64,000 nt of DNA from Thermoanaerobaculia bacterium (GCA_965116145.1 OZ220482.1:1916143-1980142); one strand, 5' to 3'. Counted from the first letter of the stretch, positions 3,901 through 53,757 are shown. Made by a program: numbers and translations. The notes: generated by a model not told the origin, from the sequence alone.

Positions 3901-4380
3901 TCAGGAGGAGGCGCCGCGACGATACTCGCCGCTGCGGCCGCCGCTCTTCGCCTCCAGCCGCAAGTCCGAGATGACCGCGCCGCGTTCGACCGACTTGACC
4001 ATGTCGTAGAGGGCGAGGGCAGCGGCGGCGCAGGCAGTCAGTGCTTCCATCTCGGCCCCCGTGCGAGCGGTCGCAACGACGCGGCTGCGTATCTCCACAC
4101 CGCCTGCCGCCGGCTCGATGTCCACCTCCACCTGATCGAGTGCCAGCGGATGGGCCAGGGGAACCCAGGTCGCCGTGCTCTTCGCCGCCTGCACGCCGGC
4201 GATCCGGGCGACGGTCACGGCGTCGCCCTTGGGCAAGGTCTGCAGGCGTTCGACGGTCAGGTCGGAGATCAGGACGCGGCAGGAAGCCTCGGCCGCGCGC
4301 CGGGTCACGTCCTTGGCGGAGACATCGACCATGGCGGCCCGGCCGCGGCGGTCCAGATGGCTGAAGCTCTCGTTCTTCAT
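3901..4380 (-). CDS. moaC: cyclic pyranopterin monophosphate synthase accessory protein MoaC
   Basis: SHLDRRGRAAMVDVSAKDVTRR, GDAVTVARIAGVQAAKSTATWVPLAHPLAL are MoaC signatures. 159 aa, ATG start. Confidence 0.85.
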   Translation of the reverse strand: MKNESFSHLDRRGRAAMVDVSAKDVTRRAAEASCRVLISDLTVERLQTLPKGDAVTVARIAGVQAAKSTATWVPLAHPLALDQVEVDIEPAAGGVEIRSRVVATARTGAEMEALTACAAAALALYDMVKSVERGAVISDLRLEAKSGGRSGEYRRGASS

Positions 4381-4425
4381 CGCGGCAGCCCGGCGCGCAC
4401 AAGGGCGCCGGCGCCGCTCGCTAAC

Positions 4426-4596
4426 CTAGCAGCCTGTCGCAAGGGTCACGCCGTACTCGTTTCCGCCATGCATCTCCGTCCGGCTGCGTTGCTTTTCACT
4501 CAGACATGCACGACATGCGTCGCCATGATGAAGCCTTGCCGGACGGGCGCCTGACCGCTCCCGGTGCGACACGAACGTCCGCCACGGATTGCCAGG
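4426..4596 (-). repeat. MITE-like element copy (full length, orientation B), in divergent moaC/GT2 intergenic region
   Basis: ctagcagcctgtcgc...gccatgcatctccgtccggctgcgttgcttttc...ccttgccggacgggcgcctgaccgctcccggtgcgacac...ccacggattgccagg. Shares both conserved cores and terminal inverted repeats with the 8555..8722 copy. Confidence 0.7.
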
Positions 4597-4601
4597 AGGA
4601 G

Positions 4602-5285
4602 ATGCGAGTCGCGATCGTCATGCCGGTGCTGGAGGAGGCGGCACGGGTACAGGACGCCGTCGACGCGGCCCGCGCTCACTGCGACGAACTCCTCGTCATC
4701 GACGGCGGCAGCACGGATCGGACCGCGGAACTGGCCGCCGACAGGGGCGCCCGGGTTGTCACCCTGCCGCGGGCCGGGCGCGGGCTGCAGCTCCGAACGG
4801 GCGCTGACCTGGCCCTCCGGACCGGCGCCGATGTGCTGCTCTTCCTCCACGCCGACACGCGGCTGCCGCCGGCCGCCAGGTCCGGCCTGGAGGAAGCGGT
4901 GCAGGCCGGTGCGGTCGGCGGCGGTTTCCTGATCGACTTCGAGCCGACATCGCCGCTGTTGCGGCGCGGCCGGGTCCTGGTCGATTTCCGCACCCGCCGG
5001 CTGCGTCTGCCGCTCGGCGACCAGGCCCAGTTCGCCACGGCCGCGGCCTACGCCGCCAGCGGCGGCTTCTCCGACCTGCCGATTCTCGAGGATCTCGACT
5101 TCATCGGCCGTCTCCGCCGGCAGGGACCGATCTCCATCGTCGAGCAGCGCGCGACGACGTCATCCCGACGCTTCGCCGAACGAGGCGTGGTGCGCACCGT
5201 CGCGACGAACTGGCTGATCTGGTTGCTGTTCGCGGCCGGCGTCAAGCCGACCCGGCTGGCCAGCCTCTACCCCCTGGTGCGCTGA
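4602..5285 (+). CDS. family-2 glycosyltransferase
   Basis: ATG 4602 preceded by AGGAGGAG. MRVAIVMPVLEEA..ELLVIDGGSTDRT..RGARVV is a GT-A fold N-terminus. The track N-terminal 32 aa are read-through of the upstream MITE copy. Confidence 0.7.
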   Translation: MRVAIVMPVLEEAARVQDAVDAARAHCDELLVIDGGSTDRTAELAADRGARVVTLPRAGRGLQLRTGADLALRTGADVLLFLHADTRLPPAARSGLEEAVQAGAVGGGFLIDFEPTSPLLRRGRVLVDFRTRRLRLPLGDQAQFATAAAYAASGGFSDLPILEDLDFIGRLRRQGPISIVEQRATTSSRRFAERGVVRTVATNWLIWLLFAAGVKPTRLASLYPLVR

Positions 5286-5442
5286 CCGGGGGGGCTCCGG
5301 CCCCGAAGCCTCGAGACGACCTCCTCCCCGCACCCGCTGTCCTCGCGGTGTTCCGTTCGTTGGAGCGAACGCGGAACTCCGCGAAGCTGGTTCTTCGGAG
5401 CGCGGTCGTGACGAGGTCCTGAGGGCCGGGACCGGACCCGGA

Positions 5443-5718
5443 CTAGTTGAGCGCGTCCTTCAGCGGACGGCTGACCTTGAACCGAACACTGTTGCTGGCC
5501 GCGATGGTCAGCGACGCGCCGGTCTGCGGGTTGCGCCCCGTGCGGGCGCCGCGGTGGGACACGGAGAAGCTCCCGAGGCCCGGAAGCTGCACGCGGTCAC
5601 CCTTCTGCAGGTGGCTCGAGATGCTGTCGATCAGAGAATCGACGGCATCCACCGCCTGCTTCTTGCTCAGACCCGCGCCCTCGGCCACGGCGTCTACGAT
5701 GTCTGCCTTTCCGGCCAT
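5443..5718 (-). CDS. hup: HU/IHF-family DNA-binding protein
   Basis: MAGKADIVDAVAEGAGLSKKQAVDAVDSLIDSISSHLQKGDRVQLPGLGSFSVSHRGARTGRNPQTG, 91 aa. AGGAGGAG RBS upstream of ATG 5718. Confidence 0.85.
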   Translation of the reverse strand: MAGKADIVDAVAEGAGLSKKQAVDAVDSLIDSISSHLQKGDRVQLPGLGSFSVSHRGARTGRNPQTGASLTIAASNSVRFKVSRPLKDALN

Positions 5719-5916
5719 CGAACGTCTCCTCCTGAGTTGGGTTATGGATGTCGAGCCCGTCGGGCTCCCCGAGTTGAACCGAAGCACCGGCACGAGACCG
5801 GAAGCCAAGCCGACGCAGCGTTCCAGACGGGCGGCTCCGACGCACGGCTCCTAGTGTCCGATGGCATCTTCAGGTATGCTCGGTTGTTTTGCTTCGTGAT
5901 ACCCGCGAAGCGCCGC

Positions 5917-5947
5917 AAATGTACGCCGAAGAAAGCCGAACTGTCAA
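5917..5947 (-). promoter_or_regulatory. putative sigma-70 promoter for hup (TTGACA-N19-TACATT)
   Basis: On minus strand TTGACA (5947..5942) and TACATT (5922..5917) in an AT-richer stretch. Would give a ~190-nt 5' UTR. Confidence 0.25.
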
Positions 5948-6010
5948 TACTGGCCGACACTTCCGGCCGTCGGAAGGGTCCACGAACCGGTTCACGCCGT
6001 CGTGCAGCCG

Positions 6011-6107
6011 CCTGGCAGTCCGTGGCAGAAGTCCGTGTCGCACCGTCGCACCGGGAGCGGTCAGGCGCCCGCCCGGCAAGGGTGCGATAGTCGTGCATAC
6101 TGCCAGG
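6011..6107 (+). repeat. MITE-like element copy (internally deleted, orientation A) just downstream of rsmB stop
   Basis: cctggcagtccgtggcagaagtccgtgtcgcacc(gtcgcacc)gggagcggtcaggcgcccgcccggcaagg...gcatactgccagg. Left TIR plus core 1 (with an 8-bp duplication) joined to a right-TIR remnant. Confidence 0.6.
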
Positions 6108-6130
6108 CCGATCCCGCTGCGTCTGCAAGC

Positions 6131-7537
6131 TCACTCGGCGGCGCGCTGAAGAACCTGGACCGTGAACCCGTCATGACCTTCGGCCGGAAGCAGTCGCCAC
6201 AACCCGGGCCCCGCCACATGGCCGTCCGCCGGCCTGCCGAGATCGGCGTGCAGGTCCCGCCGCCTGAAGTCGGACCGTGATCCCAGGAAGGCCGCCGCGA
6301 CCTCCTCGTTCTCCTCGGGCTCGATCGAGCAGGTGACCACGACCAGCAATCCGCCCGGCCGCACGCAGTCGGCAGCGCCAAGGACCAGCGAACGGGCCTG
6401 TTCCGCCAGCCGGTCGATCTCCTCGGCGCTGATCCGCCACTTGAGTTCGGGGTGCTTGCGCAGGGTGCCGGTACCGCTGCACGGCAGATCGACGACGACG
6501 CGGTCGAAGCGGTCGCGGAACGGAAGGGCAGCGCCGTCAGCCGCGCAGAACGACGGCGCCAGGGCCAGGCGGGAGGCGTTGCCACGCATCGTCCACAGAC
6601 GCGCCAGGGACACGTCACAAGCCACGCAGCGGAGATCCGGCTGCTCCGCGAGCGCCGCGAAGGTCTTGCCGCCCGGCGCCGCGGCGATGTCGAGCACCCG
6701 CTCCCCCGGCGCCGGCGGCGGCACGATCGCTGCCAACTGGCTGGCCTCGTCCTGAACGTAGAAGGCGCCGCGACGGTAGGCCTCCGAGAGCAGCGGGTTG
6801 CCCCACTGGACGGTCACGCTGTGCGGCGCCAGGGCCGACGGCTCGACGCCCACATCGTCGTCGATCAACTGCTCGGCCAGCAAGCCGCGGCCGCCGCGAT
6901 CGCGGAACGCCAGCAGGTGCAGCGGCTTCGGGCGGTTGTTCGCGGTCAGGATGGCGAGCGTCTGCTGCTCGCCATAGGTGCGCAGCCAGCGCTTGACCAG
7001 CAGGTCCGGATGGGAGTGCAGGAGGCCCAGTCGGGCCGCCGGATCGACCTCCTCGACCGGCCAGGCGTCTCGACGCGGCGAACGGGCAATGCGCCGCAGC
7101 ACGCCGTTGACGAAGCTGGCGCCGCCGGAATGGGTGCGGTTCGCCGCCTGCTCCACCGCCTCGTTGACCGCCGCGTGGTTGGGAATACGGTCCAGAAAGA
7201 ACAGCTGGTACACGGCAATCCGCAACGGCGCCAGCAGCGAGCGTTGAACCCGGGAAAGAGGACGCCCGGACGCGGAGGCGAGCACATGGTCGATGAAGCG
7301 CAACCAGCGCAGCGTTCCCAGAACGAGTTCCCGCAGCAGTCCGTGGTCCTTCGGGTCGCAACGTTCCAGAGCATCGTTCAGAAACGTCGACACCGGCGCC
7401 CTGGACTCCAGCGTGCGCTCGAGAACGAAGGCGGCCGATTCCCTGACCCTGGCGTGAACGGTGAGCGGAGCATCGGACCGACGGCGGCTCCAGCCCGAGG
7501 CGGAGCCCAGGTTTCGGATCGGCCGCCGACGCGTCAC
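6131..7537 (-). CDS. rsmB: 16S rRNA (cytosine967-C5)-methyltransferase
   Basis: C-terminal SAM MTase motifs DIAAAPGGKT, DRVVVDLPCSGTG, PGGLLVVVTCS; N-terminal NusB-like region. GTG 7537 overlaps fmt stop (GTGA). Track N-terminus trimmed. Confidence 0.85.
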   Translation of the reverse strand: MTRRRPIRNLGSASGWSRRRSDAPLTVHARVRESAAFVLERTLESRAPVSTFLNDALERCDPKDHGLLRELVLGTLRWLRFIDHVLASASGRPLSRVQRSLLAPLRIAVYQLFFLDRIPNHAAVNEAVEQAANRTHSGGASFVNGVLRRIARSPRRDAWPVEEVDPAARLGLLHSHPDLLVKRWLRTYGEQQTLAILTANNRPKPLHLLAFRDRGGRGLLAEQLIDDDVGVEPSALAPHSVTVQWGNPLLSEAYRRGAFYVQDEASQLAAIVPPPAPGERVLDIAAAPGGKTFAALAEQPDLRCVACDVSLARLWTMRGNASRLALAPSFCAADGAALPFRDRFDRVVVDLPCSGTGTLRKHPELKWRISAEEIDRLAEQARSLVLGAADCVRPGGLLVVVTCSIEPEENEEVAAAFLGSRSDFRRRDLHADLGRPADGHVAGPGLWRLLPAEGHDGFTVQVLQRAAE

Positions 7538-8535
7538 GCCTGTGTCCTGAAGCGCTCGCCGGCCGCCAGCCGCAGACCGTTCGCGAAGTCCACGCCACCG
7601 ATCGGACGACGGCCCGGCCGCTGCACGCGGACCAGCACCAGGGCAGACGGGCCGCCGCAACGCACGACGGCCGCCCGGCCGAGACCTTCCACCTGGAGAC
7701 ACCCAAGGAACGCGCCCGGCCGATCGTCCCGGGCGTCGAGGCCGTCCGGACGGGCGAACGCAGCCAGGGGCCTCACCTCGAGGATCCTGATGGCCTCGCC
7801 CCGCAGCCTGGTCCGCGACCCCGGCCACGGTTCGTAGGCGCGCACGCGGCCCGCGATCGCGGAGGCCTCCCGGGTCCAGTCGACAACGCCGTCCTCCGAC
7901 CGCAGCATCGGAGCATGGCTCGCCGCGTCCTCGGACTGCGGGCGGGGTTCGACCTCACCGGCTTCCAGACCGTCGAGAGTGCGGACGAGCAGGCGCGCGC
8001 CCACCGCGGCAAGGCGCGGCGTCAACTCGCCCGCCGTCTCGCAGGGGCCGATGGCGACCTCCTCGCTCAACAGGATCGGCCCGGTGTCGAGGCCTTCCTC
8101 CATGACCATCGTGGTCACTCCCGTCACTTCTTCCCGGTTGGCGATCGCGGACTGGATCGGTGACGCCCCGCGGTAGGCCGGCAGCAGGGAGGCGTGGACA
8201 TTCAGGCAGCCCCGGGACGGCAGCTCGAGCAAGGCCCGAGGGAGAATTCTGCCGTAGGCCACGACCACGGCCAGGTCAAGGTCCAGTGCACGGATGCGGC
8301 CGAGAAACTCGCCATCGAGCAGCCGCACCGGCTGCAACAGGTCCACCTCGTGAGCCAGCGCCCAGCGGGCCACCGGAGGTTCGACCACCCTGCTGCCCCG
8401 GCCCGCCCGCCGCGCCGGTTGGCTGACGACGACCACCGGGCGGCGACCCGCCGCGTCCAGTGCCGCCAACGACGGCACCGCGAACTCCGGTGTGCCGAAG
8501 AACGCGATCCTCCGGAGTCTCGGCCGCGCAGACAT
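7534..8535 (-). CDS. fmt: methionyl-tRNA formyltransferase
   Basis: MSARPRLRRIAFFGTPEFAVPSL..., HASLLPAYRGASPIQ. ATG 8535 (track shows GTG 8541). Confidence 0.9.
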   Translation of the reverse strand: MSARPRLRRIAFFGTPEFAVPSLAALDAAGRRPVVVVSQPARRAGRGSRVVEPPVARWALAHEVDLLQPVRLLDGEFLGRIRALDLDLAVVVAYGRILPRALLELPSRGCLNVHASLLPAYRGASPIQSAIANREEVTGVTTMVMEEGLDTGPILLSEEVAIGPCETAGELTPRLAAVGARLLVRTLDGLEAGEVEPRPQSEDAASHAPMLRSEDGVVDWTREASAIAGRVRAYEPWPGSRTRLRGEAIRILEVRPLAAFARPDGLDARDDRPGAFLGCLQVEGLGRAAVVRCGGPSALVLVRVQRPGRRPIGGVDFANGLRLAAGERFRTQA

Positions 8536-8554
8536 CGACACCGTGAGCCTAGCC

Positions 8555-8722
8555 CTAGCAGTCCGTGGCAGAAGTCGCGTGTCGCACCGAGAGCGGTCAG
8601 GCGCCCGTCCGGCAAGGCGCGAAGGTTACGCATATTGGGGCATATGTGACCGAAGAGCAACGCAGCCGGGCGGGATGCATGGCTGAAACGAATGCAACGT
8701 GACTTCTGCCACGGACTGCTAG
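8555..8722 (+). repeat. MITE-like element, full-length reference copy (orientation A)
   Basis: 168 bp. TIR ctagcagtccgtggcagaagt ... acttctgccacggactgctag. Core 1 gtgtcgcaccgagagcggtcaggcgcccgtccggcaaggcgcg; core 2 gaagagcaacgcagccgggcgggatgcatggc. Sits 20 bp upstream of fmt start. Confidence 0.8.
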
Positions 8723-8797
8723 CTAGTACCTCACCGATCACCGGCTCAAGCCGTGCTCCGCCCGCTGCGGACCCCGTGGCCAGCCAGGCTGCAACCG

Positions 8798-11173
8798 CTA
8801 CTCGAAGGCGATCCGGGACTGGTCGATCTCCTCGAAGTAATCCGGCGGCACGAGGACCTCCCGCGGCTTGCTGCCCTGGGCCGGGCCGAGAATGCCGTCC
8901 TGCTCCATCAGATCCACCAGGCGAGAAGCACGGGAGAAGCCCACCCTCATGCGGCGCTGAAGGAAGCTCGCCGACCCCATCCGTTCGGCAACGACCAGCC
9001 GCGCGGCCTCGTCGTAGAGGACATCGGCCCCGCCGTTCTCGTTTCCGGCCGCCGCTCGATCCTCCGGCGGCGGCTCGAGCACCGCCGGATCGAGGTTCGG
9101 CGAGCCCTGCCGCTTGAGCCAGCGGACCAGCGCCGCCGTTTCCTGTTCGGTCACGAAGGCGCCGTGGAGACGGAGCATGCGGCCGCTGCCGGGCGGCATG
9201 AACAGCATGTCGCCCTTGCCGAGCAGCTTCTCGGCGCCGACCTGGTCGAGGATGGTCCGCGAATCGTGCCGGGTAGCCGCGGCGTAAGAGATCCGGCAAG
9301 GGAAGTTCGCCTTGATCGTGCCCGTCAGGACGTCGACCGAGGGCCGCTGGGTGGCGACGATCAGGTGGATGCCGACGGCGCGCGCCATCTGCGCCAGGCG
9401 GGCGATCGACGTCTCGACCTCGGACGAAGCGACCATCATCAGATCGGCCAGCTCGTCGATGACGATCACGTAGTAGGGAAGCGGCTCGAGGCTCCTGGGT
9501 TCGGCGTCTTCGTCGGCCTCCTCGTCCCGAAGGCGCAGGCGGCGGGCCACGTCCGGATCGGCGATCGCCTGGTTGTAGAAGTCGATCGACCGAACGTGAA
9601 CTTCGGCCAGCAGACGGTAGCGGCGCTCCATCTCGGAGACGGCCCAGCGCAGTGCGTTCGCGGCCTGCTTCGGTTCCACCACGACCGCCGTCTTCAGGTG
9701 CGGGATGTCCGCGTAGACACCGAGCTCGATCCGCTTCGGGTCGATCAGGATGAACTGGACCTCGTCACTCCGGGCCCGGTACAGGATCGAAGTCAGCATG
9801 CCCTGGAGGCCGACACTCTTCCCGGCGCCGGTGGCACCCGCCACCAGGAGATGCGGCATCTTCGCCAGATCGGCGAAGTAGGGCTCGCCGCGGAGAGTGC
9901 GTCCGAGCGCCATGGTGAGCGGGGACCCGCTGTTCCTGAACTCCGATTCGGCGAGAAGGCCGCCCAGGAGGATGACCGTTCGGCTCCTGTTCGGGACCTC
10001 GATGCCGAGCGTCGACCGGCCGGGCATGCGCTCGACCCGGATCGCCTCGGCCTTCAGGGCAAGCGCAAGATCGTCCTGAAGGTTGACGATCTGAGCCACC
10101 TTCACGCCCGGCGCCGGCTGAAACTCGAACACGGTGATGACCGGACCGGGGCTGATGCCCTCGACCGAGCCTTCGACTCCGAACTCGGCGCAGCGAGCGC
10201 AGATGAGTTCGCCGAGTTCCCTGAGTTCGTCCTCGTTGACCTCGGCGCTCACCTCCTCGGTAAGGAGCAGGTCGAGCGGCGGCAGTTCGGTGCTCTCTGC
10301 CTTCGGCCGTGTGTTCTCAGCGGTCGCGTCCGCCGGCGGCAGGGACGCTTCCGGCGCAGCGGGCGCCGGCTTCGCCCCGACAGCGGGTGACAGCTCCACC
10401 TTCGGCTCGCTGGCTCCGCGGATGGCCGCCTTCGCCTTCCCATCTCGCGGCGTCCCGCGCAGCGGCAGCTCCGCGAGCGGTGTCCCGTTCTCCGGCGGCG
10501 CCGACTTCGCCTGACCGCGGCGCGCGGTCCGGGGCGATGTCCTGGCCCGGGACCTGCTCCTGGACTTCGGCTTGACCAGGTCGAGGAACGTCCTGAGCCG
10601 GCTCCAGCCGCCGGCAACGGACTCGCCCAGGCTGGCCCGCAGCATCAGTGCAATCCCGAACACGAAGCCCGACACGGCGATCACTCCGGCCCCGAGCACA
10701 CCCAGCTGACCCTCGACTGCGCTGGCGATCGTCGATCCCAGCAGTCCCCCGGCGACCAGGGACTCGCCTCGGAACGCGACGTCGCCCGCGGCCAGGGCGA
10801 TCAGGGTCGGCGTCGCAATCAGGGTAACGAAGATACCCGCCGCCTGAAGCGGCGACGGAACTTCGGCGCGTGCGCGAACCAGCCGGTAGCCCAGACCGAG
10901 GACCGCCAGAGCCACCGCGAGAACGGCGAACCCGAGCAGCCCGTAGCCGGCGGCTGCAACGTGGGCGCCGATCGGCCCGATGAGGTTGGCGGTCTCGGCC
11001 GCGCCCTCGACACTCCGCATGAAGCTCGGGTCGCCCGGCTGGTAGCTCAGCAGGCTGAGGAGCAGGAGCGCTCCGAGCATGAGCAGCAGCAGACCGACGA
11101 GCTCGGCGGCCTTGCCCGCCGGCAGACCGGTGCTCAGCGCAAACCGCCGGGGGCTGTCGTCCGAACGAATCAC
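8798..11173 (-). CDS. ftsK: DNA translocase FtsK
   Basis: N-terminal TM helices, Pro/Ala-rich linker, Walker A GATGAGKSVGLQ, HLIVATQRPSVDV, C-terminal gamma domain (LYDEAARLVVAERMGSASFLQRRMRVGFSRASRLVDLME). GTG start. Confidence 0.9.
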   Translation of the reverse strand: MIRSDDSPRRFALSTGLPAGKAAELVGLLLLMLGALLLLSLLSYQPGDPSFMRSVEGAAETANLIGPIGAHVAAAGYGLLGFAVLAVALAVLGLGYRLVRARAEVPSPLQAAGIFVTLIATPTLIALAAGDVAFRGESLVAGGLLGSTIASAVEGQLGVLGAGVIAVSGFVFGIALMLRASLGESVAGGWSRLRTFLDLVKPKSRSRSRARTSPRTARRGQAKSAPPENGTPLAELPLRGTPRDGKAKAAIRGASEPKVELSPAVGAKPAPAAPEASLPPADATAENTRPKAESTELPPLDLLLTEEVSAEVNEDELRELGELICARCAEFGVEGSVEGISPGPVITVFEFQPAPGVKVAQIVNLQDDLALALKAEAIRVERMPGRSTLGIEVPNRSRTVILLGGLLAESEFRNSGSPLTMALGRTLRGEPYFADLAKMPHLLVAGATGAGKSVGLQGMLTSILYRARSDEVQFILIDPKRIELGVYADIPHLKTAVVVEPKQAANALRWAVSEMERRYRLLAEVHVRSIDFYNQAIADPDVARRLRLRDEEADEDAEPRSLEPLPYYVIVIDELADLMMVASSEVETSIARLAQMARAVGIHLIVATQRPSVDVLTGTIKANFPCRISYAAATRHDSRTILDQVGAEKLLGKGDMLFMPPGSGRMLRLHGAFVTEQETAALVRWLKRQGSPNLDPAVLEPPPEDRAAAGNENGGADVLYDEAARLVVAERMGSASFLQRRMRVGFSRASRLVDLMEQDGILGPAQGSKPREVLVPPDYFEEIDQSRIAFE

Positions 11174-11179
11174 CGGAGC

Positions 11180-11346
11180 CCTGGAAACCTGCCGCGGATG
11201 TGCGTGTCGCGCCGGGAGCGGTCAGGCGACCGTCCGGCAAGGCGCGGCGAGAGAACGTGCGGGGACGATTGCGACCGAGGAGCCGTGCAGCCGGGCGGCA
11301 TGCAGGGGTGCTCGCATGCGACGCGACGTTCGCCGCGGACTGCCAG
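11180..11346 (+). repeat. MITE-like element copy (orientation A) between ftsK start and ksgA stop
   Basis: cctggaaacctgccgcggatgtgcgtgtcgcgccgggagcggtcaggcgaccgtccggcaaggcgcg...gcagccgggcggcatgcag...gacgttcgccgcggactgccag. Ends 7 bp from ftsK GTG. Confidence 0.7.
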
Positions 11347-11391
11347 ACCGGTCATGGCTGGAACATGCACGAGCATGTGATTGTAGCCCGC

Positions 11392-12192
11392 TCAGTCGAA
11401 TATGGCTATATACGGCTTCATCTGGCGAAACAGCCTGACGAACTCCGGCACATCGAGGCTCTCGGCGCGCACCCTGAGCGGCAGGCCCAGCGCCGCGAGG
11501 GCCGCCTCGGCTGCAGGCCGACCCACCGTCGGCCGGAAGTTGTTGACGAGGGTCTTGCGTCGCTGGCTGAACGCGGTGCGCACGAAGCCGGCAAAGGCCG
11601 ACCACTCCGTGTCGTCGACTGGCGGCGCCTTGCGCTCGAATCCCACGAAGGCGCTGGTCACTGCCGGCGGCGGCACGAAACTGCCGGGAAGAACGACCGA
11701 CAGTCGACCCACCCTTGCCCGCGCACCGACCAGGACACTCAGTCCGCCGTAGTCCGAATCGCCCGGAGATGCCGCCAGCCGGTCCGCAACTTCCCGCTGC
11801 ACCAGAAACGCTGCACGGGCGCCGATCGGCGCCCGCTCGAGAACGGCGAGAACGATCCGGGTGGCGGCGTTGTACGGCAGGTTGCCGGCGATCCGGGTCG
11901 AAGCCGGCAGTGTTTCGTAGCGAAGATCGCAACCGTCGCCTGCGGCCAGGACCAGACGCGAATCGGCGATCCTCCGGCGCAGCTCCAGTGTCCAGGCCAG
12001 GTCGAGCTCGCAGGCGATCACCCGGCTCGCGCCGTACTCCAGGAGCAGGCGCGTGAGCACGCCGCCGCCGGGGCCGATCTCGACGACCCTGCAGCCGGCG
12101 ACATCCAGGAACTCGACCGCGGGAACCGCGGAACCCGGGTGCCGAAGGTGATGCTGACCAAGGGACTTCCGAAGCGGGGGAACGCGGCTCAC
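11392..12192 (-). CDS. rsmA: 16S rRNA (adenine1518/1519-N6)-dimethyltransferase
   Basis: LRKSLGQHHLRH, VVEIGPGGGVLT, IAGNLPYN. GTG 12192 chosen (266 aa) so the gene does not overlap the divergent GGDEF gene; track ATG 12300 is the alternative. Confidence 0.8.
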   Translation of the reverse strand: MSRVPPLRKSLGQHHLRHPGSAVPAVEFLDVAGCRVVEIGPGGGVLTRLLLEYGASRVIACELDLAWTLELRRRIADSRLVLAAGDGCDLRYETLPASTRIAGNLPYNAATRIVLAVLERAPIGARAAFLVQREVADRLAASPGDSDYGGLSVLVGARARVGRLSVVLPGSFVPPPAVTSAFVGFERKAPPVDDTEWSAFAGFVRTAFSQRRKTLVNNFRPTVGRPAAEAALAALGLPLRVRAESLDVPEFVRLFRQMKPYIAIFD

Positions 12193-23241: not shown

Positions 23242-23323
23242 TGCGAAAGGGGGGACTCGAACCCCCACCCCTGCCGGGACCAGATCCTAAGTCTGGCGCG
23301 TCTACCAGTTCCGCCACTTTCGC
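23242..23323 (-). tRNA. tRNA-Leu (anticodon TAG)
   Basis: Reverse complement GCGAAAG-TG-GCGGAACTGGTAGACGCG-CCAGA-CTTAGGA-TCTGG-long variable arm-GGGGGTTCGAGTCCCCC-CTTTCGC-A. Perfect 7-bp acceptor stem, class II variable arm, no encoded CCA. Confidence 0.8.
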
Positions 23324-23373
23324 CCGATCGCAACCAGTCCGACAGCGCTGCGGCAGCCGTCGCGGGAGAAGCT

Positions 23374-23449
23374 TGGTGAGCCGCCTAGGAATCGAACCTA
23401 GAACCCACAGATTAAGAGTCTGTTGCTCTGCCAATTGAGCTAGCGGCCC
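23374..23449 (-). tRNA. tRNA-Lys (anticodon CTT)
   Basis: Reverse complement GGGCCGC-TA-GCTCAATTGGCAGAGC-A-ACAGA-CTCTTAA-TCTGT-GGGTT-CTAGGTTCGATTCCTAG-GCGGCTC-ACCA. Cloverleaf with encoded CCA. Confidence 0.85.
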
Positions 23450-24162: not shown

Positions 24163-24806
24163 CGGTACAACCCGTACTTGCGACAGTACCGCAGCACGGC
24201 GGCAGGCATCAACTCGGCATCCACCTCGTCGCCGCGAGCCAGCCGCCGGCGGATGGAGCTCGAGGAAGCGTCGACCGAGCGATGCCGGATCAGGTCGAGC
24301 CCGCGGGCGCCCTCGGCCACCGCCACGACAGCAGGATCCAGCCCTCGCTCGCCCGGTCGGGCCAGGACCACCAGCCTGACAGCGCCGATCAGGTCCTCGC
24401 ACCGCCGCCACGACAGCAGGGTATTGAAGCTGTCGACGCCGAGCAGCAGGTGCAGGTCGGCAGCCGCGTCCTCCGCCGCGAAGCGTTCCACGGTGTCGAC
24501 CGTGTACATGGTGCGGCCGAGGTCGAGCTCGGCGTCCGAGACGACGAGCTCGGGCCAGGGCAGAAGCGCCAGTTCGACCATCGTGTTCCGCTTGAGCGCG
24601 GACACCTTCGTCCCCCGGGGCTTGTGCGGCGGACAGGCAGTCGGCAGATAGTGGACGACGTCCAGGCCAAGGAGCTCCCTTGCGGCAAGCACCGGCAGGA
24701 TGTGGCCGTTGTGGATCGGGTCGAAACTGCCGCCGAACAGCCCGATCTTCACGGCAGGCCCCGCGGCCGCCCGTGGCGAAGGTCTCGCTGCGCCGGCTTC
24801 AGCCAT
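24159..24806 (-). CDS. nadD: nicotinate-nucleotide adenylyltransferase
   Basis: IGLFGGSFDPIHNGH..., SSIRRRL. ATG 24806 lies inside a MITE copy; GTG 24749 (VKIGLFGG) is the alternative. Confidence 0.85.
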   Translation of the reverse strand: MAEAGAARPSPRAAAGPAVKIGLFGGSFDPIHNGHILPVLAARELLGLDVVHYLPTACPPHKPRGTKVSALKRNTMVELALLPWPELVVSDAELDLGRTMYTVDTVERFAAEDAAADLHLLLGVDSFNTLLSWRRCEDLIGAVRLVVLARPGERGLDPAVVAVAEGARGLDLIRHRSVDASSSSIRRRLARGDEVDAELMPAAVLRYCRKYGLYR

Positions 24807-24933
24807 GCATCCCGTCCGGCGGCGTTGCTCTTCGCTCACCTGTGCCCCGGCACGCTCACTCACCGCGCCCTGGCCGGAACGGGCGCCTGACCGCTCTCGG
24901 TGCGGCACGCGCGTTCACCACGGGCTGCGCAGG
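24803..24933 (-). repeat. MITE-like element copy (orientation B) in obg-nadD junction
   Basis: gccatgcatcccgtccggcggcgttgctcttc...ccctggccggaacgggcgcctgaccgctctcggtgcggcacgc...cacgggctgcgcagg. Contains the obg stop (24860) and the nadD ATG (24806). Confidence 0.7.
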
Positions 24934-25984
24934 CAACCGCCGCCTCGTCGACCAGGTCGACGGCGTCGGCCGCATCCAGGAGACGGCGCAGCTCGCGGAC
25001 AAGGCAACCCAGGCCGGCGCCTTCGACCGCCGATATCTCCAGCTTCGGCACGCCCTCCCGGCGGGCCAGCTCGGCCAGGCCGCGGCGCCGCTCCGGCGAC
25101 GCGATGTCGAGCTTCGAGCCGCACAGCAGGCGGGGTCGGCGGAGAAGATCGTCGTTGAACTCTCCCAGCTCGGCGCAGACCGTGTCGAAGGCCCCCTCGA
25201 CCGTAACGGCGGCTCCCTCCGGCTGCGGTCCCAGGTCGACCAGGTGGAGCAGGACACGGCAACGCTCCACGTGGCGCAGGAATCGGGCGCCCAGCCCCGC
25301 ACCCTGCGCCGCGCCGGCGATCAGCCCAGGCAGGTCGGCGATGACGAAGGGCTCCGCTTCGACCGGCACTGCCGGCGGACCGACGACGCCGAGCTGGGGA
25401 ACCAGCGTGGTGAAGGGGTAGTCCGCGACCCGCGGCCTTGCGGCGGTCAGCCTGCTGATGAGTGTCGACTTGCCGGCGTTCGGGAGGCCGACGACGCCGA
25501 CGTCGGCCAGCAGCTTCAACTCCAGGCGGAGACGGCGTTGCTCCCCCGGCGTTCCGGGTTCAACCCGTCTCGGCGCGCGCTGGCGTGCACTCCTGAAGCG
25601 GGCATTGCCGCGGCCGCCGGCGCCGCCGCGCGCCACCACGAGCTGTTCGTCCTCTGCCAGGACCTCGCCCAGGCGCTCACCGGTCCCGGCATCACGGACT
25701 TCGGTGCCGAGCGGCACCGGAATCACCAGGTCGCGGCCGCTCCTGCCGGTCCGGTTCGACCCCTCGCCGTGCCGGCCGCCGTCAGCCTGATATGCCGCCG
25801 GAAAGCTCAGACGATAGAGAGTGCCCAGACCCGTTGCGCCGACCAGGACGACATCACCGCCGGCGCCGCCGTCGCCGCCGGAGGGACCGCCGCGCGGCAC
25901 GAACTTCTCCCGCCGGAACGCCAGACAGCCGTCTCCACCGGAACCCGCGAGGACATCGATGACGGCCTCGTCGACGAAGTGCAT
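24860..25984 (-). CDS. obg: GTPase Obg/CgtA
   Basis: MHFVDEAVIDVLAGSGGDGCLAFRREKF, GGRGGDGG-type glycine-rich fold, G-domain GLPNAGKSTLIS, DLPGLIAGA. ATG 25984. Last ~20 aa (TESGQAPVPARAR) are encoded by the MITE copy. Confidence 0.9.
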   Translation of the reverse strand: MHFVDEAVIDVLAGSGGDGCLAFRREKFVPRGGPSGGDGGAGGDVVLVGATGLGTLYRLSFPAAYQADGGRHGEGSNRTGRSGRDLVIPVPLGTEVRDAGTGERLGEVLAEDEQLVVARGGAGGRGNARFRSARQRAPRRVEPGTPGEQRRLRLELKLLADVGVVGLPNAGKSTLISRLTAARPRVADYPFTTLVPQLGVVGPPAVPVEAEPFVIADLPGLIAGAAQGAGLGARFLRHVERCRVLLHLVDLGPQPEGAAVTVEGAFDTVCAELGEFNDDLLRRPRLLCGSKLDIASPERRRGLAELARREGVPKLEISAVEGAGLGCLVRELRRLLDAADAVDLVDEAAVACAARGERACRTESGQAPVPARAR

Positions 25985-26018
25985 CAGCCGCTCCCGGCGG
26001 CGCTGGCAGTCCTGTCCC

Positions 26019-26276
26019 TTACCCGGCCGGGTGGACGTTGACCACCGTGCCGCGGCGACCGCGGTTGCGGAACTCGACCACACCGTCCGCACGCGCGAAC
26101 AGCGTGTCGTCTCTGCCCCGGCCCACGTTCTCACCAGGGAAGAAGCGCGTACCGCGCTGGCGAACGATGATCGTGCCGCCGGTCACGCTCTGCCCCGCGT
26201 AGCGCTTCACGCCCAGGTTCTTGGGGTTCGAATCGCGGCCATTGCGACTTGAGCCCTGGCCCTTCTTGTGCGCCAT
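26019..26276 (-). CDS. rpmA: 50S ribosomal protein L27
   Basis: [48 protein letters not shown]. Confidence 0.95.
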
Positions 26277-28183: not shown

Positions 28184-28213
28184 CTAGCAGCCCGTGGTGG
28201 ACGTTCGGGTTGC
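28184..28213 (+). repeat. MITE-like element fragment (terminal repeat only)
   Basis: ctagcagcccgtggtggacgttcgggttgc, 10 bp upstream of the kinase GTG start, in the divergent intergenic region with the ABC substrate-binding gene. Confidence 0.45.
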
Positions 28214-34422: not shown

Positions 34423-34898
34423 CAGTCCCGGCCTGCGCCCAGGCCGAGCTTGCGGCGCGGAACGGCGGCGCCCCGCAGCAGAACAGGCACCGCGAACAGG
34501 ACGGCGTAGACGCCAAGGGTCAGGATCGGCACCAGCGGCATCGCCTCGACCTGTTCCCGGCGCGCCATGGACCGAACCAGGTAGAGCCAGCCCGGCGGTC
34601 CGAACAGATAGAGCACGAACAGAAGCCGGGTACGGGCCACCTGCAGAATGACGTCGTCCAGGCGGCGGCGGCCGGCGTGACGAACCGGACCCCTGCGCTG
34701 AACGTAGACGTTGCCGAAGAACCAGCCGGTGAACGCGGCCAGGATGTAGAGAGGATAGAGCGCCAGCTCGAAGGTCAGGTTCCAGCGCAGGACGCCGATC
34801 TGGGCAAGGATGCCGACCGACCACGCCGCCAGGCTGGACGAAAGGACGATCGTCTCCAGCAGTCCGTGGCGAACGTCGCGCTGCAATCGTTTCGGCAT
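34422..34898 (-). CDS. small polytopic membrane protein of unknown function (co-operonic with larE/larB)
   Basis: 158 aa, four predicted TM segments (LETIVLSSSLAAWSVGILAQIGV, LALYPLYILAAFTGWFF, LLFVLYLFGPPGWLYLV, PLVPILTLGVYAVLFAVPVLL). ATG is the second ATG of the MITE-terminal ATGCATG. Confidence 0.45.
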   Translation of the reverse strand: MPKRLQRDVRHGLLETIVLSSSLAAWSVGILAQIGVLRWNLTFELALYPLYILAAFTGWFFGNVYVQRRGPVRHAGRRRLDDVILQVARTRLLFVLYLFGPPGWLYLVRSMARREQVEAMPLVPILTLGVYAVLFAVPVLLRGAAVPRRKLGLGAGRD

Positions 34899-35022
34899 GC
34901 ATCCCGTCCGGCTTCGTTGACCTTCGGTCAGAGCCGGCCCGGTATTCTCACCCACGGCGCCGTGCCGGAGGGGCGCCCGTCCGTTGTCCGCGCGGCACGG
35001 ACGTTCACAACGGACTGCCAGG
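34894..35022 (-). repeat. MITE-like element copy (orientation B) between the membrane-protein gene start and gcvH stop
   Basis: ggcatgcatcccgtccggcttcgttgaccttc...ggaggggcgcccgtccgttgtccgcgcggcacggacgttcacaacggactgccagg. Confidence 0.7.
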
Positions 35023-35424: not shown

Positions 35425-35448
35425 CGAAACCTCATGTTGCCTCAGACG

Positions 35449-35614
35449 CTAGCAGCCCGTGGCAGAAGTGCGCGCCGCACCGAGAGCGGTCAGGCGCCCG
35501 TCCGGCAAGGCGCGATGAACGAGCATATTGAGGTATATGTGAGAGAAGAGCAACGCAGCCGGACGGGATGCATGGCCGATCGAATGCAGCGCTACTTCTG
35601 CCACGGGCTGCGAG
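35449..35614 (+). repeat. MITE-like element copy (full length, orientation A) overlapping the 3' end of gcvT
   Basis: ctagcagcccgtggcagaagtgcgcgccgcaccgagagcggtcaggcgcccgtccggcaaggcgcg...gaagagcaacgcagccggacgggatgcatggcc...ctacttctgccacgggctgcgag. Its terminal repeat encodes the last 7 aa and the TAG stop of gcvT. Confidence 0.8.
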
Positions 35615-43347: not shown

Positions 43348-43423
43348 GGGGCAGTAGCTCAGCTGGGAGAGCACCACGTTCGCAACGTGGGGGTCGAGGG
43401 TTCAAGTCCCTTCTGCTCCACCA
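43348..43423 (+). tRNA. tRNA-Ala (anticodon CGC)
   Basis: GGGGCAG-TA-GCTCAGCTGGGAGAGC-A-CCACG-TTCGCAA-CGTGG-GGGTC-GAGGGTTCAAGTCCCTT-CTGCTCC-ACCA. G3:U70 Ala identity pair; CCA encoded. Confidence 0.85.
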
Positions 43424-53693: not shown

Positions 53694-53757
53694 AAGAGCA
53701 ACGCAGCCGGACGAGCGTCTGACCGCATCTCGGTACGACGCGCCACGGACTGCTAGG
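53694..53757 (+). repeat. MITE-like element half copy (core 2 plus terminal repeat) 8 bp upstream of the DUF4390 start
   Basis: gaagagcaacgcagccggacgagcgtctgaccgcatctcggtacgacgcgccacggactgctagg. Confidence 0.55.

What the first reader, a model, noticed from the sequence alone, without database searches (positions are those of the whole stretch)
8555..8722. Undescribed family of ~165-bp MITE-like inverted-repeat elements, 9 copies in 64 kb
The reference copy 8555..8722 has a 21-bp terminal inverted repeat CTAGCAGTCCGTGGCAGAAGT / ACTTCTGCCACGGACTGCTAG. It carries two conserved cores: GTGTCGCACCGAGAGCGGTCAGGCGCCCGTCCGGCAAGGCGCG and GAAGAGCAACGCAGCCGG(G/A)CGGGATGCATGGC. Full copies in both orientations are at 4426-4596, 11180-11346 and 35449-35614. 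Copies 24803-24933 and 34894-35022 lack the core-2-side terminal repeat. Copy 6011-6107 is internally deleted; 53694-53757 is a half copy; 28184-28213 is a terminal repeat only. None encodes a protein and all sit in intergenic space or at gene termini. The architecture (terminal inverted repeats, ~150 bp, non-autonomous, gene-proximal) is that of Correia/ERIC/BIME-type MITEs, but I do not recognise the sequence as a described family. At about one copy per 7 kb here, the genome could hold hundreds.
Basis: seen in the sequence. Interest (0 to 1): 0.8.

Follow-up and report, generated by a model that had tools for sequence, protein, structure and literature searches.

The report
TA-flanked hairpin repeat family in Acidobacteriota
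The window carries nine copies of a roughly 167-bp non-coding mobile hairpin repeat of the ERIC/Correia kind that matches no Rfam family, and its structure and internal core are conserved far more strongly than expected for junk DNA.

Summary
The window holds six full-length copies, one internally deleted copy, one fragment and one solo end of a ~167-bp element, where none is expected by chance. The host is an uncultured Acidobacteriota MAG of the Thermoanaerobaculia/'Holophagales' type, not an actinobacterium.

Full-length copies occur in at least 12 other Thermoanaerobaculia-type MAGs. Related genomes show filled and empty sites. Copies sit at gene junctions flanked by TA, often using it as a TAG stop codon. 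No transposase was found.

Three results go beyond an ordinary MITE:
- Orthologous copies in different species show 0 differences in 166-167 nt, while flanking genes differ by 4.6-9.1%.
- The whole hairpin is kept by compensatory changes, and one strand always folds better (G·U far exceeds A·C).
- A covariance model finds the same fold in a Desulfosarcina sp. BuS5 plasmid and two metagenome contigs. Their stems are entirely different, with 16-21 of 60 pairs changed on both sides, but the internal core is invariant.

Rfam 15, plasmid, phage and literature searches gave no named match. The mobilising enzyme and the cellular function remain unknown.

The parts
8554..8722 (+). Reference full-length copy, taken as the 'ref' orientation. 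It lies between the ftsK stop (8798) and the fmt start (ATG at 8535-8533), so the operon mRNA carries its reverse complement.
   Evidence: 155 bits, model positions 1-167. It folds at -101 kcal/mol, z = -10. The syntenic ftsK-fmt junction in relatives is 12 nt and has no element.
8555..8580 (+). Left terminal inverted repeat of the reference copy (C-TA-GCAGTCCGTGGCAGAAGTCGCG).
   Evidence: positions 1-26 pair with 143-168, 96% identity.
8697..8722 (+). Right terminal inverted repeat of the reference copy (...CTTCTGCCACGGACTGC-TA-G).
8595..8621 (+). Core 1 (GGTCAGGCGCCCGTCCGGCAAGGCGCG). It forms the 5' strand of the conserved core helix.
   Evidence: It is invariant or nearly so in alignment A2. 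AGGCGCC.G..C.GGCAAGGCG is also kept in the Desulfosarcina and metagenome copies.
8657..8683 (+). Core 2 (GCAACGCAGCCGGGCGGGATGCATGGC). It forms the 3' strand of the core helix, with a bulged A, a G.A mismatch and a U.G/U-A pair.
4426..4596 (-). Full-length copy in the divergent intergenic region between moaC-like and glycosyltransferase-like genes.
   Evidence: 93 bits. The syntenic region in relatives has no copy.
11180..11346 (+). Full-length copy in the ftsK 5' untranslated region. It lies between a conserved promoter-like TAGCCA-17-TACAAT (11408-11380, - strand) and the ftsK start (11173).
   Evidence: 115 bits. Absent at the same place in L032 and L035.
24763..24933 (-). Full-length, diverged copy at the 3' end of the obg ORF. 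The ORF 24860-26134 (- strand) ends inside the element.
   Evidence: 102 bits, model positions 1-167.
34856..35022 (-). Full-length copy downstream of gcvH. This is one of the few copies whose ref strand is the mRNA sense.
   Evidence: 126 bits.
35448..35614 (+). Full-length copy between gcvT and gcvH. The gcvT stop codon (35592-35594) lies inside its right arm.
   Evidence: 178 bits.
6011..6107 (+). Internally deleted copy (left half plus the last 8 nt of the right end), between rsmB and the HU gene.
53706..53757 (-). Fragment consisting of part of the left arm.
   Evidence: E = 4.5e-5.
28184..28213 (+). Solo left terminal repeat, 9 nt upstream of the GTG start of a histidine-kinase gene on the opposite strand.

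Best explanation
This is a family of ~167-bp non-autonomous interspersed repeats of the bacterial MITE class with TA termini, like ERIC, Correia and RUP. It has expanded in one lineage of Thermoanaerobaculia-type Acidobacteriota.

Shown:
- Copies are multi-copy and present or absent at orthologous sites.
- They are flanked by TA and sit at gene junctions. There the TA plus the element's first G recreates a TAG stop for the upstream gene, and the downstream ribosome-binding site and start stay intact.
- The whole element is one long imperfect hairpin kept by compensatory changes, around an invariant asymmetric core helix: GGCGCCCGUCCGGC paired with GCCGGRCGGG-A-UGC, with a bulged A and a G.A mismatch.
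- Fixed copies do not change between species.

Inferred:
- A transposase supplied in trans inserts the element at TA. An IS630/Tc1-type enzyme is the default candidate for TA duplication.
- The element is then co-transcribed with its neighbours, usually so that the mRNA carries the strand that folds less tightly.
- The resulting RNA hairpin acts after transcription, for example on processing, stability or uncoupling of adjacent cistrons, as shown experimentally for ERIC and Correia elements.
- The invariant core is the docking site for a protein, either the mobilising enzyme or a host RNA- or DNA-binding factor. This would explain why the core is kept while the stems drift.
For: Repeat family and significance.

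Taxonomic spread: 31 loci in Thermoanaerobaculia, 'Ca. Multivorans' and Holophagales-named MAGs.

Filled and empty sites:
- L004 and L007 are filled, L026 and L028 are empty, at the same gene junction.
- Window copies 4426, 6011, 8554 and 11180 have no counterpart in 22 kb of synteny in relatives.

TA ends:
- The flank is TA, or TG/CA one transition away, at 27 of 31 left ends and 22 of 31 right ends. TA is on both sides in 7 copies, mostly the highest-scoring ones.
- Removing the element plus one TA from L038 rebuilds a TAATG stop/start overlap.
- The Desulfosarcina-type copies have TTA...TTA flanks.

Non-coding: codon positions vary 29/41/30, with 15 synonymous against 69 non-synonymous changes.

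Fold: z = -10. 91% of cells are paired, 19 pairs have double changes, and 0 of 500 shuffles reach this.

Purifying selection: 0 of 166, 0 of 167 and 0 of 167 differences, against 10.2, 15.2 and 7.7 expected from the flanks.

Orientation bias: tandem gene contexts split 14 against 3 (p = 0.013), and the left flank splits 23 against 7 (p = 0.005).

Properties of the class (TA termini, target-site duplication, 5'-3' stem-loop, orientation-dependent ERIC effect, RNase III on Correia, RUP mobilised by IS630-Spn1): PMC2229807.
Against: - No transposase with matching ends was found in the window, in about 300 kb of related loci, or on the Desulfosarcina plasmid.
- The terminal repeats are less conserved than the interior and share nothing across phyla. 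That is the reverse of what a transposase-recognised MITE predicts.
- The strand that folds better (27 of 30 copies, mean 13.8 kcal/mol; derived G.U 80 against A.C 25) is usually not the mRNA strand. So an RNA-hairpin function in the mRNA does not explain the asymmetry. This points to a single-stranded intermediate or an antisense or independent transcript.
- The TA duplication is inferred from diverged sites, not from an exact empty/filled pair.
- No expression data exist.
- The element is G+C-rich, unlike most described MITEs.
Confidence: 0.55

Rival explanations
1. This is primarily a structured non-coding RNA, or a cis-acting RNA module, with a conserved protein- or ligand-binding core. 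Multiplication in Thermoanaerobaculia is secondary, in the way eukaryotic short interspersed repeats (SINEs) derive from small RNA genes.
For: - The covariance model built only on Thermoanaerobaculia copies finds full-length, strand-specific matches in Desulfosarcina sp. BuS5 (74 bits), L038 (68 bits) and L079 (61 bits).
- Those copies keep 50-56 of 60 pairs, with 16-21 compensatory, while the core is invariant.
- G.U greatly exceeds A.C.
- Orthologous copies are perfectly conserved.
- In L079 and on the BuS5 plasmid the ref strand is the sense strand of the flanking genes.
Against: - No Rfam family matches, even at E <= 10.
- No promoter or terminator was found in or next to the copies scanned (window 4300-11500, four copies).
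- In Thermoanaerobaculia the ref strand is usually antisense to the surrounding operon.
- Neighbouring genes have no common function.
- TA flanks and insertion polymorphism indicate transposition.
- The pair counts come from an alignment fitted to the model, which leans towards the structure.
Confidence: 0.2
2. This is a REPIN-like element that moves as folded single-stranded DNA. A Y1 HUH transposase (RAYT or IS200-like) would recognise the hairpin and its extrahelical bases.
For: - The fold is strand-specific with G.T-tolerant covariation, and the conserved core has a bulged A and a G.A mismatch.
- The half-copy in L086 lies 130-210 nt upstream of a Y1_Tnp gene fragment (PF01797, 26.4 bits against a 23-bit cutoff; weak REP_Tyr_transpos hit).
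- The Thermoanaerobaculia-type copy has no match in the plasmid or phage collections, as reported for REPINs. The Desulfosarcina-type copy, however, is on a plasmid.
Against: - Nine contigs carrying homologues of that Y1 gene have no core motif nearby.
- No Y1 gene occurs in the window or in the Thermoanaerobaculia loci.
- HUH transposition does not duplicate TA.
- The arms are not REP-type short palindromes, and no GTAG or CGTC tag is present.
- One copy does sit on a plasmid.
Confidence: 0.1
3. This is a purely selfish, functionless MITE. The hairpin merely reflects its terminal repeats, and the conservation merely reflects recent spread.
For: Interspersed copies lie in both orientations next to unrelated genes. 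Within the window the copies are decaying (66-86% identity), and there are deleted and solo-end derivatives.
Against: - Orthologous copies carrying private variants are identical across three species whose flanks differ by 4.6-9.1%.
- Compensatory changes extend through the interior and the apical hairpin, not only the ends.
- The core is invariant across phyla with unrelated stems.
- Orientation relative to genes is biased.
Confidence: 0.1

Closest known systems
ERIC / IRU (enterobacterial repetitive intergenic consensus, 127 bp)
   Same: - A non-coding imperfect palindrome with TA at its termini.
- It lies in transcribed intergenic regions and is co-transcribed with its neighbours.
- Its effect on mRNA depends on orientation.
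- It is conserved across genera.
- No transposase is known for it (PMC2229807; conservation across genera is from my own knowledge of Wilson & Sharp 2006).
   Different: There is no sequence similarity. The present element is longer (~167 bp) and G+C-rich. It has a 21-26-bp terminal repeat against 7 bp in ERIC. It occurs in Acidobacteriota and Desulfobacterota. Its invariant part is an internal asymmetric core, and the stems have turned over completely between phyla.
Correia / NEMIS elements of Neisseria (107-155 bp)
   Same: Terminal repeats of about 24-26 bp, TA termini and duplication, a conserved core, and a long stem-loop in transcripts. They occur at gene junctions with effects on neighbouring genes, and no transposase is known (PMC2229807 and PMC2649163).
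   Different: No IHF site or outward promoter was found here. RNase III processing was not tested. The taxon and the sequence are unrelated.
RUP of Streptococcus pneumoniae, mobilised by IS630-Spn1
   Same: Insertion at TA and non-autonomy. The TA target is the signature of IS630/Tc1/mariner transposases (PMC2229807, PMC2170065).
   Different: RUP's terminal repeats match a known IS630 member. No such partner was found for this element.
REPIN / RAYT systems
   Same: A hairpin of about 100-170 nt, interspersed and intergenic, with selection on the fold (PMC3116915).
   Different: The arms are not REP palindromes. There is no GTAG or CGTC tag and no RAYT was found. TA flanks are present, and one copy is on a plasmid.

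Membership tests
Bacterial MITE with TA termini (Delihas 2008 class: Correia, ERIC, RUP) | Under 200 bp and not protein-coding | tested here: met
   The element is 165-171 bp. A 27-codon ORF on the reverse strand shows no third-position bias (29/41/30; 15 synonymous against 69 non-synonymous changes).
Bacterial MITE with TA termini (Delihas 2008 class: Correia, ERIC, RUP) | Terminal inverted repeats | tested here: met
   A 26-bp inverted repeat with one mismatch in the reference copy. Outer-stem pairs are kept in over 90% of cells.
Bacterial MITE with TA termini (Delihas 2008 class: Correia, ERIC, RUP) | 5'-TA-3' at both termini / target-site duplication | tested here: inconclusive
   TA is at 12 of 31 left ends and 10 of 31 right ends, and TG or CA at most of the others. 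The L038, L004 and L006 junctions rebuild plausible stop/start sites after removing the element plus one TA. No exact empty/filled pair from near-identical genomes was available.
Bacterial MITE with TA termini (Delihas 2008 class: Correia, ERIC, RUP) | Multiple interspersed copies, with presence/absence at orthologous sites | tested here: met
   Nine copies in the window. L004 and L007 are filled where L026 and L028 are empty. Four window copies are absent from syntenic loci of relatives.
Bacterial MITE with TA termini (Delihas 2008 class: Correia, ERIC, RUP) | The transcript folds into a long stem-loop by pairing of its 5' and 3' ends | tested here: met
   Predicted energies of -101 and -84 kcal/mol for the two strands, z = -10 and -7.6. 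Covariation is supported. Transcription itself was not tested.
Bacterial MITE with TA termini (Delihas 2008 class: Correia, ERIC, RUP) | A+T-rich | tested here: not met
   Copies have 62-75% G+C in a 69% G+C genome. This feature is listed for 'most' members of the class and is not strict.
IS630/Tc1-derived MITE | Terminal repeats match those of an autonomous IS630-family element in the same genome | not testable with these tools
   No whole genome was available. No match to the terminal repeat lies outside the small elements in the window or the loci. No transposase was found next to the copies.
REPIN / RAYT | A RAYT (Y1 HUH) gene flanked by the repeat; arms are REP palindromes with a GTAG or CGTC tag | tested here: not met
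   There is no Y1 gene in the window or the related loci. Homologues of the single Y1 gene seen beside a half-copy lack the motif nearby. Ends read CTAG or TTAG, not GTAG or CGTC, and the arms are not self-palindromic. Whole genomes were not searched.
Any described RNA family (Rfam 15) | A covariance-model match at or near the gathering score | tested here: not met
   Only tRNAs matched in the window at gathering score. Nothing matched at E <= 10 on the reference copy or on L038, and L079 gave only a spurious microRNA hit at E = 6.
Integron attC site | RYYYAAC...GTTRRRY core sites at the base of the hairpin; an array next to an integrase | tested here: not met
   The ends are (C/T)TAGCAG...CTGCTA(G). 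Copies are scattered among housekeeping genes in both orientations.

The most novel reading that the evidence does not exclude
The element may not be a deletion derivative of an insertion sequence at all. It could be a self-contained structured single-strand module (RNA or ssDNA), shared by Acidobacteriota, Desulfobacterota and at least one high-G+C lineage. In this reading its invariant asymmetric core (bulged A, G.A mismatch, U.G pair) is recognised by an undescribed protein. That protein would either mobilise the folded strand into TA sites or use it as a regulatory or processing signal. This would be a new class of structure-recognised mobile RNA/DNA element.
Probability: 0.2. Interest if true: 0.8.

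Novelty: new member of a known kind. Interest (0 to 1): 0.55.

Why it matters
Thermoanaerobaculia are abundant, almost uncultured Acidobacteriota, and their mobile and regulatory DNA is essentially unknown. This family is inserted inside core operons: the ftsK 5' UTR, between ftsK and fmt, between gcvT and gcvH, and at the end of obg. It is nevertheless kept base for base between species, so it probably shapes expression of essential genes.

The function of ERIC- and Correia-type repeats, and what moves them, is a long-standing open question. This family offers an unusually informative case for three reasons:
- It has a strictly conserved core inside freely covarying stems.
- It has a clear strand asymmetry.
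- It has a member on a plasmid of a cultured bacterium, Desulfosarcina sp. BuS5, where transcription, processing and protein binding can be tested.

Practically, the repeat can also break assemblies and mislead gene callers, because ORFs run into it.

Tried and rejected
- **Rfam 15.** Searches at gathering score and at E <= 10 gave no family.
- **Plasmid, phage and viral-contig searches with the Thermoanaerobaculia copy or the cores.** No match.
- **Literature.** Searches by taxon, by 'miniature inverted-repeat' and by the literal core sequences found nothing describing the element.
- **Small-protein reading.** A 27-aa ORF (MHPARHRCSSVEYGPICSLVAPCRTGA) is kept in 18-22 of 30 copies. It shows no codon-position pattern, so I rejected it.
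- **Internal sigma-70 promoter or intrinsic terminator.** None was found in the scanned stretch, window 4300-11500, which holds four copies.
- **Autonomous parent element.** The terminal repeat occurs only in the small elements. ORFs between distant weak matches are an SBP_bac_5 protein, a permease and QueA.
- **RAYT/Y1 transposase lead from L086.** I followed it with two protein searches and four contig look-ups and could not reproduce it.
- **Replication-strand bias as the cause of orientation bias.** This is unlikely, because both orientations occur within the same run of co-oriented genes, and the copy at 53706 flips together with the local gene direction.
- **Metagenome scan with core 2.** Most hits were chance 18-mer matches, and only L038, L079 and L086 were real.
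- **Exact look-up of the window's own FtsK protein.** It failed, so the source genome could not be fetched.

Full report
**1. Observation**

The reference copy at 8555-8722 reads as reported. Its terminal repeat matches are far above chance: 5 matches against 0.00 expected, and 19 against 1.78 for a degenerate version.

blastn, an nhmmer profile and a covariance model all recover six full-length copies: 4426-4596 (-), 8554-8722 (+), 11180-11346 (+), 24763-24933 (-), 34856-35022 (-) and 35448-35614 (+). They also recover an internally deleted copy at 6011-6107, a fragment at 53706-53757 and a solo end at 28184-28213.

It is the only genuine repeat family in the window. The window is 69% G+C. 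Copies within it are only 66-86% identical to each other.

**2. Host and distribution**

An exact 23-mer of core 1 occurs in 31 stretches of the species-representative genome set. Nearly all are MAGs named Thermoanaerobaculia, 'Candidatus Multivorans', Holophagales or Acidobacteria, and 13 are in one 4.17-Mb chromosome. Full-length copies there are 80-86% identical to the window's.

The window's FtsK has 83-84% identical homologues in 'Holophagales' MAGs. The element was not found in plasmid, phage or viral-contig collections when queried with the Thermoanaerobaculia copy. It matches no Rfam 15 family, even at E <= 10. I found no paper describing it.

**3. Mobility**

In two Multivorans genomes (L004, L007) the element separates two genes. 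In L026 those genes overlap as ATGA, and in L028 a 40-nt spacer separates them. L026 carries a copy on the other side of the same small gene.

The window region from moaC to ftsK is syntenic with loci L032-L036 from relatives. Those 22-kb loci have no copy, while the window has four. The ftsK-fmt spacer is 12 nt in the relatives, against 263 nt with the element here. The copy at 11180 lies between a conserved promoter-like TAGCCA-17-TACAAT and the ftsK start.

Ends are flanked by TA, or by TG/CA one transition away. TA is on both sides in 7 copies, mostly the highest-scoring ones.

Because the element begins with G, TA plus G recreates a TAG stop. In 6-8 copies the upstream gene stops exactly there. 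The other flank often reads CTAGG|AG, which preserves a Shine-Dalgarno sequence. In L038, removing the element plus one TA rebuilds GTT-TAA-TG, a typical stop/start overlap between a MoxR gene and its partner.

No transposase lies in or beside any copy. Flanking genes are housekeeping: fmt, ftsK, gcvT, gcvH, obg, a histidine kinase and an SBP_bac_5 protein.

**4. Structure**

The element is one long imperfect hairpin: -101 kcal/mol, z = -10, for the reference strand and -84 kcal/mol for its complement.

On 30 copies from 15 genomes, 91% of cells are standard pairs. Nineteen of 60 pairs show changes on both sides, and none of 500 shuffles or 6 slid controls comes near this. Covariation extends into the apical hairpin.

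The fold is strand-asymmetric. The reference strand is more stable in 27 of 30 copies, by a mean of 13.8 kcal/mol. In pairs whose majority is Watson-Crick, derived G.U outnumbers A.C by 80 to 25. These counts are not phylogenetically independent.

A 27-codon ORF on the other strand has no coding signature.

**5. Selection**

Two sets of orthologous copies could be compared. L004 against L007 shows 0 differences in 166 nt, apart from a nested 69-bp insertion, while flanks differ by 6.1%. L018 against L023 shows 0 in 167 nt against 9.1% in the flanks. L023 against L031 shows 0 in 167 nt against 4.6%.

The probabilities of seeing no change at the flank rate are 3e-5, 1e-7 and 4e-4. The last two comparisons share a tree, so they are not independent. 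The copy in L018, L023 and L031 carries private variants, so these are inherited copies and not repeated insertions. Fixed copies are therefore under purifying selection.

**6. Orientation**

I counted 33 copies, each orthologous set once, using a crude GC3-based gene call. The gene next to the left end reads away from the element in 23 cases against 7 (p = 0.005). Between co-directional genes, the mRNA carries the reverse complement of the reference strand in 14 cases against 3 (p = 0.013).

The bias follows local gene direction rather than position in the window. The copy at 53706 flips together with its neighbouring genes.

The strand that folds best is thus usually not the mRNA strand, and I cannot explain this. 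One possibility is that the tighter hairpin is harmful inside operons. Another is that the asymmetry reflects a single-stranded transposition intermediate.

**7. Cross-phylum core**

A metagenome scan with core 2 gave mostly chance hits. Three contigs were real: L038 (71% G+C), L079 (46% G+C) and L086 (51% G+C, right half only). Where the left half is present (L038, L079) both cores occur, inside completely different stems; L086 keeps only the core-2 half.

The L079 version matches, at 84% over 97% of its length, an unannotated intergenic stretch of a Desulfosarcina sp. BuS5 plasmid, NZ_CP087953.1 at 100043-100200.

A covariance model built only from Thermoanaerobaculia copies finds these three as full-length matches on the reference strand, at 74, 68 and 61 bits with E from 1e-10 to 6e-13. 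Against the Thermoanaerobaculia consensus they keep 50-56 of 60 pairs, with 16-21 changed on both sides. AGGCGCC.G..C.GGCAAGGCG and CAAC...GCC.G.CGGGATGCAT.G stay invariant. This alignment is fitted to the model, which favours the structure.

Within the core helix, one pair runs C-G, then U-G, then U-A across the three groups. The Desulfosarcina-type copies are flanked by TTA...TTA.

**8. The mobilising enzyme**

The right-half copy in L086 lies just upstream of a Y1_Tnp (IS200/RayT-like) gene fragment. Nine contigs carrying homologues of that gene lack the motif. No Y1 gene is present in the window or the related loci.

The BuS5 plasmid carries IS4, IS3 and Tn3 transposases and group II introns. 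None has matching ends, and the plasmid holds only one copy.

TA duplication is the signature of IS630/Tc1/mariner transposases (PMC2170065). RUP is thought to be moved by IS630-Spn1 (PMC2229807). That is the default candidate, but it is not shown.

**9. Comparison and verdict**

The element meets the descriptive criteria of bacterial MITEs with TA termini: under 200 bp, non-coding, terminal repeats, TA ends, 5'-3' stem-loop, and filled and empty sites (PMC2229807). It is closest in behaviour to ERIC (co-transcribed, orientation-dependent, conserved across genera) and to Correia elements (about 26-bp repeats, conserved core, gene-junction positions).

It differs in three ways. It is G+C-rich. 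It has an invariant internal asymmetric core rather than conserved ends. Its fold is conserved across phyla.

I file it as a new family of a known kind, with 0.55 confidence in the MITE-plus-RNA-hairpin model. I give 0.2 probability to a more novel reading, in which a structure-recognised single-strand module has its own undescribed protein partner.

Noticed in passing
L007 about 4522-4590 (inside the element copy at 4386-4622): A 69-bp insertion made of two short G+C-rich hairpins (GGTGGCGCGTCTTCGCGCCAC and GAGCGCCCGTCATCGGGCGCTC) is nested in the element of one Multivorans genome. It is absent from the otherwise identical orthologous copy in L004. It may be a second, smaller REP-like mobile repeat.
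   Followed up: no
window 8723-8797: Between the ftsK stop and the element lie 76 extra nt that relatives lack. They contain TGGCCACGGGGTCCGCAGC, which resembles the element's right terminal repeat, so they may be the remnant of an older insertion.
   Followed up: partly
window 11380-11408 (- strand): A promoter-like TAGCCA-17-TACAAT upstream of ftsK is conserved in L032 and L035 (ATATAGCCATAT...GGCTACAAT). The element is inserted downstream of it, so it lies in the ftsK leader.
   Followed up: partly
window 35592-35614 and 24860-24933: The gcvT and obg ORFs run into the element and stop inside it. The repeat therefore supplies their last codons, about 7 for gcvT and about 24 for obg, and gene callers will extend or truncate these proteins.
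   Followed up: no
L086 1-560: A half-copy (core 2 plus the right arm) lies next to a Y1_Tnp/RayT-like gene fragment. It is preceded by three direct repeats of GTGTCCCTATGAG. Homologous Y1 genes elsewhere lack the motif.
   Followed up: yes
L135 6000-6165 (NZ_CP087953.1 100043-100200): A cultured organism, Desulfosarcina sp. BuS5, carries one unannotated copy of the A+T-rich version on a 108-kb plasmid that encodes conjugative-transfer (tra) genes, though MOB-suite types it as non-mobilizable. The copy lies downstream of parA and a hypothetical gene and is flanked by TTA direct repeats.
   Followed up: partly
reverse strand of most copies, for example window 8681-8598: A 27-codon ORF (MHPARHRCSSVEYGPICSLVAPCRTGA) is kept in about two thirds of copies. 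It has no codon-position signature and is judged non-coding.
   Followed up: yes
window 23242-23449 (-) and 43348-43420 (+): Three tRNA genes are present (Rfam RF00005). None is adjacent to an element copy.
   Followed up: no
L005 (Anaerolineales-labelled MAG, 1.6-kb contig) and L011 (Bacteroidia-labelled MAG): L005 holds a full copy on a very short contig, which is probably a binning error. L011 and L017 match only the 23-nt core, and these are probably chance matches.
   Followed up: partly
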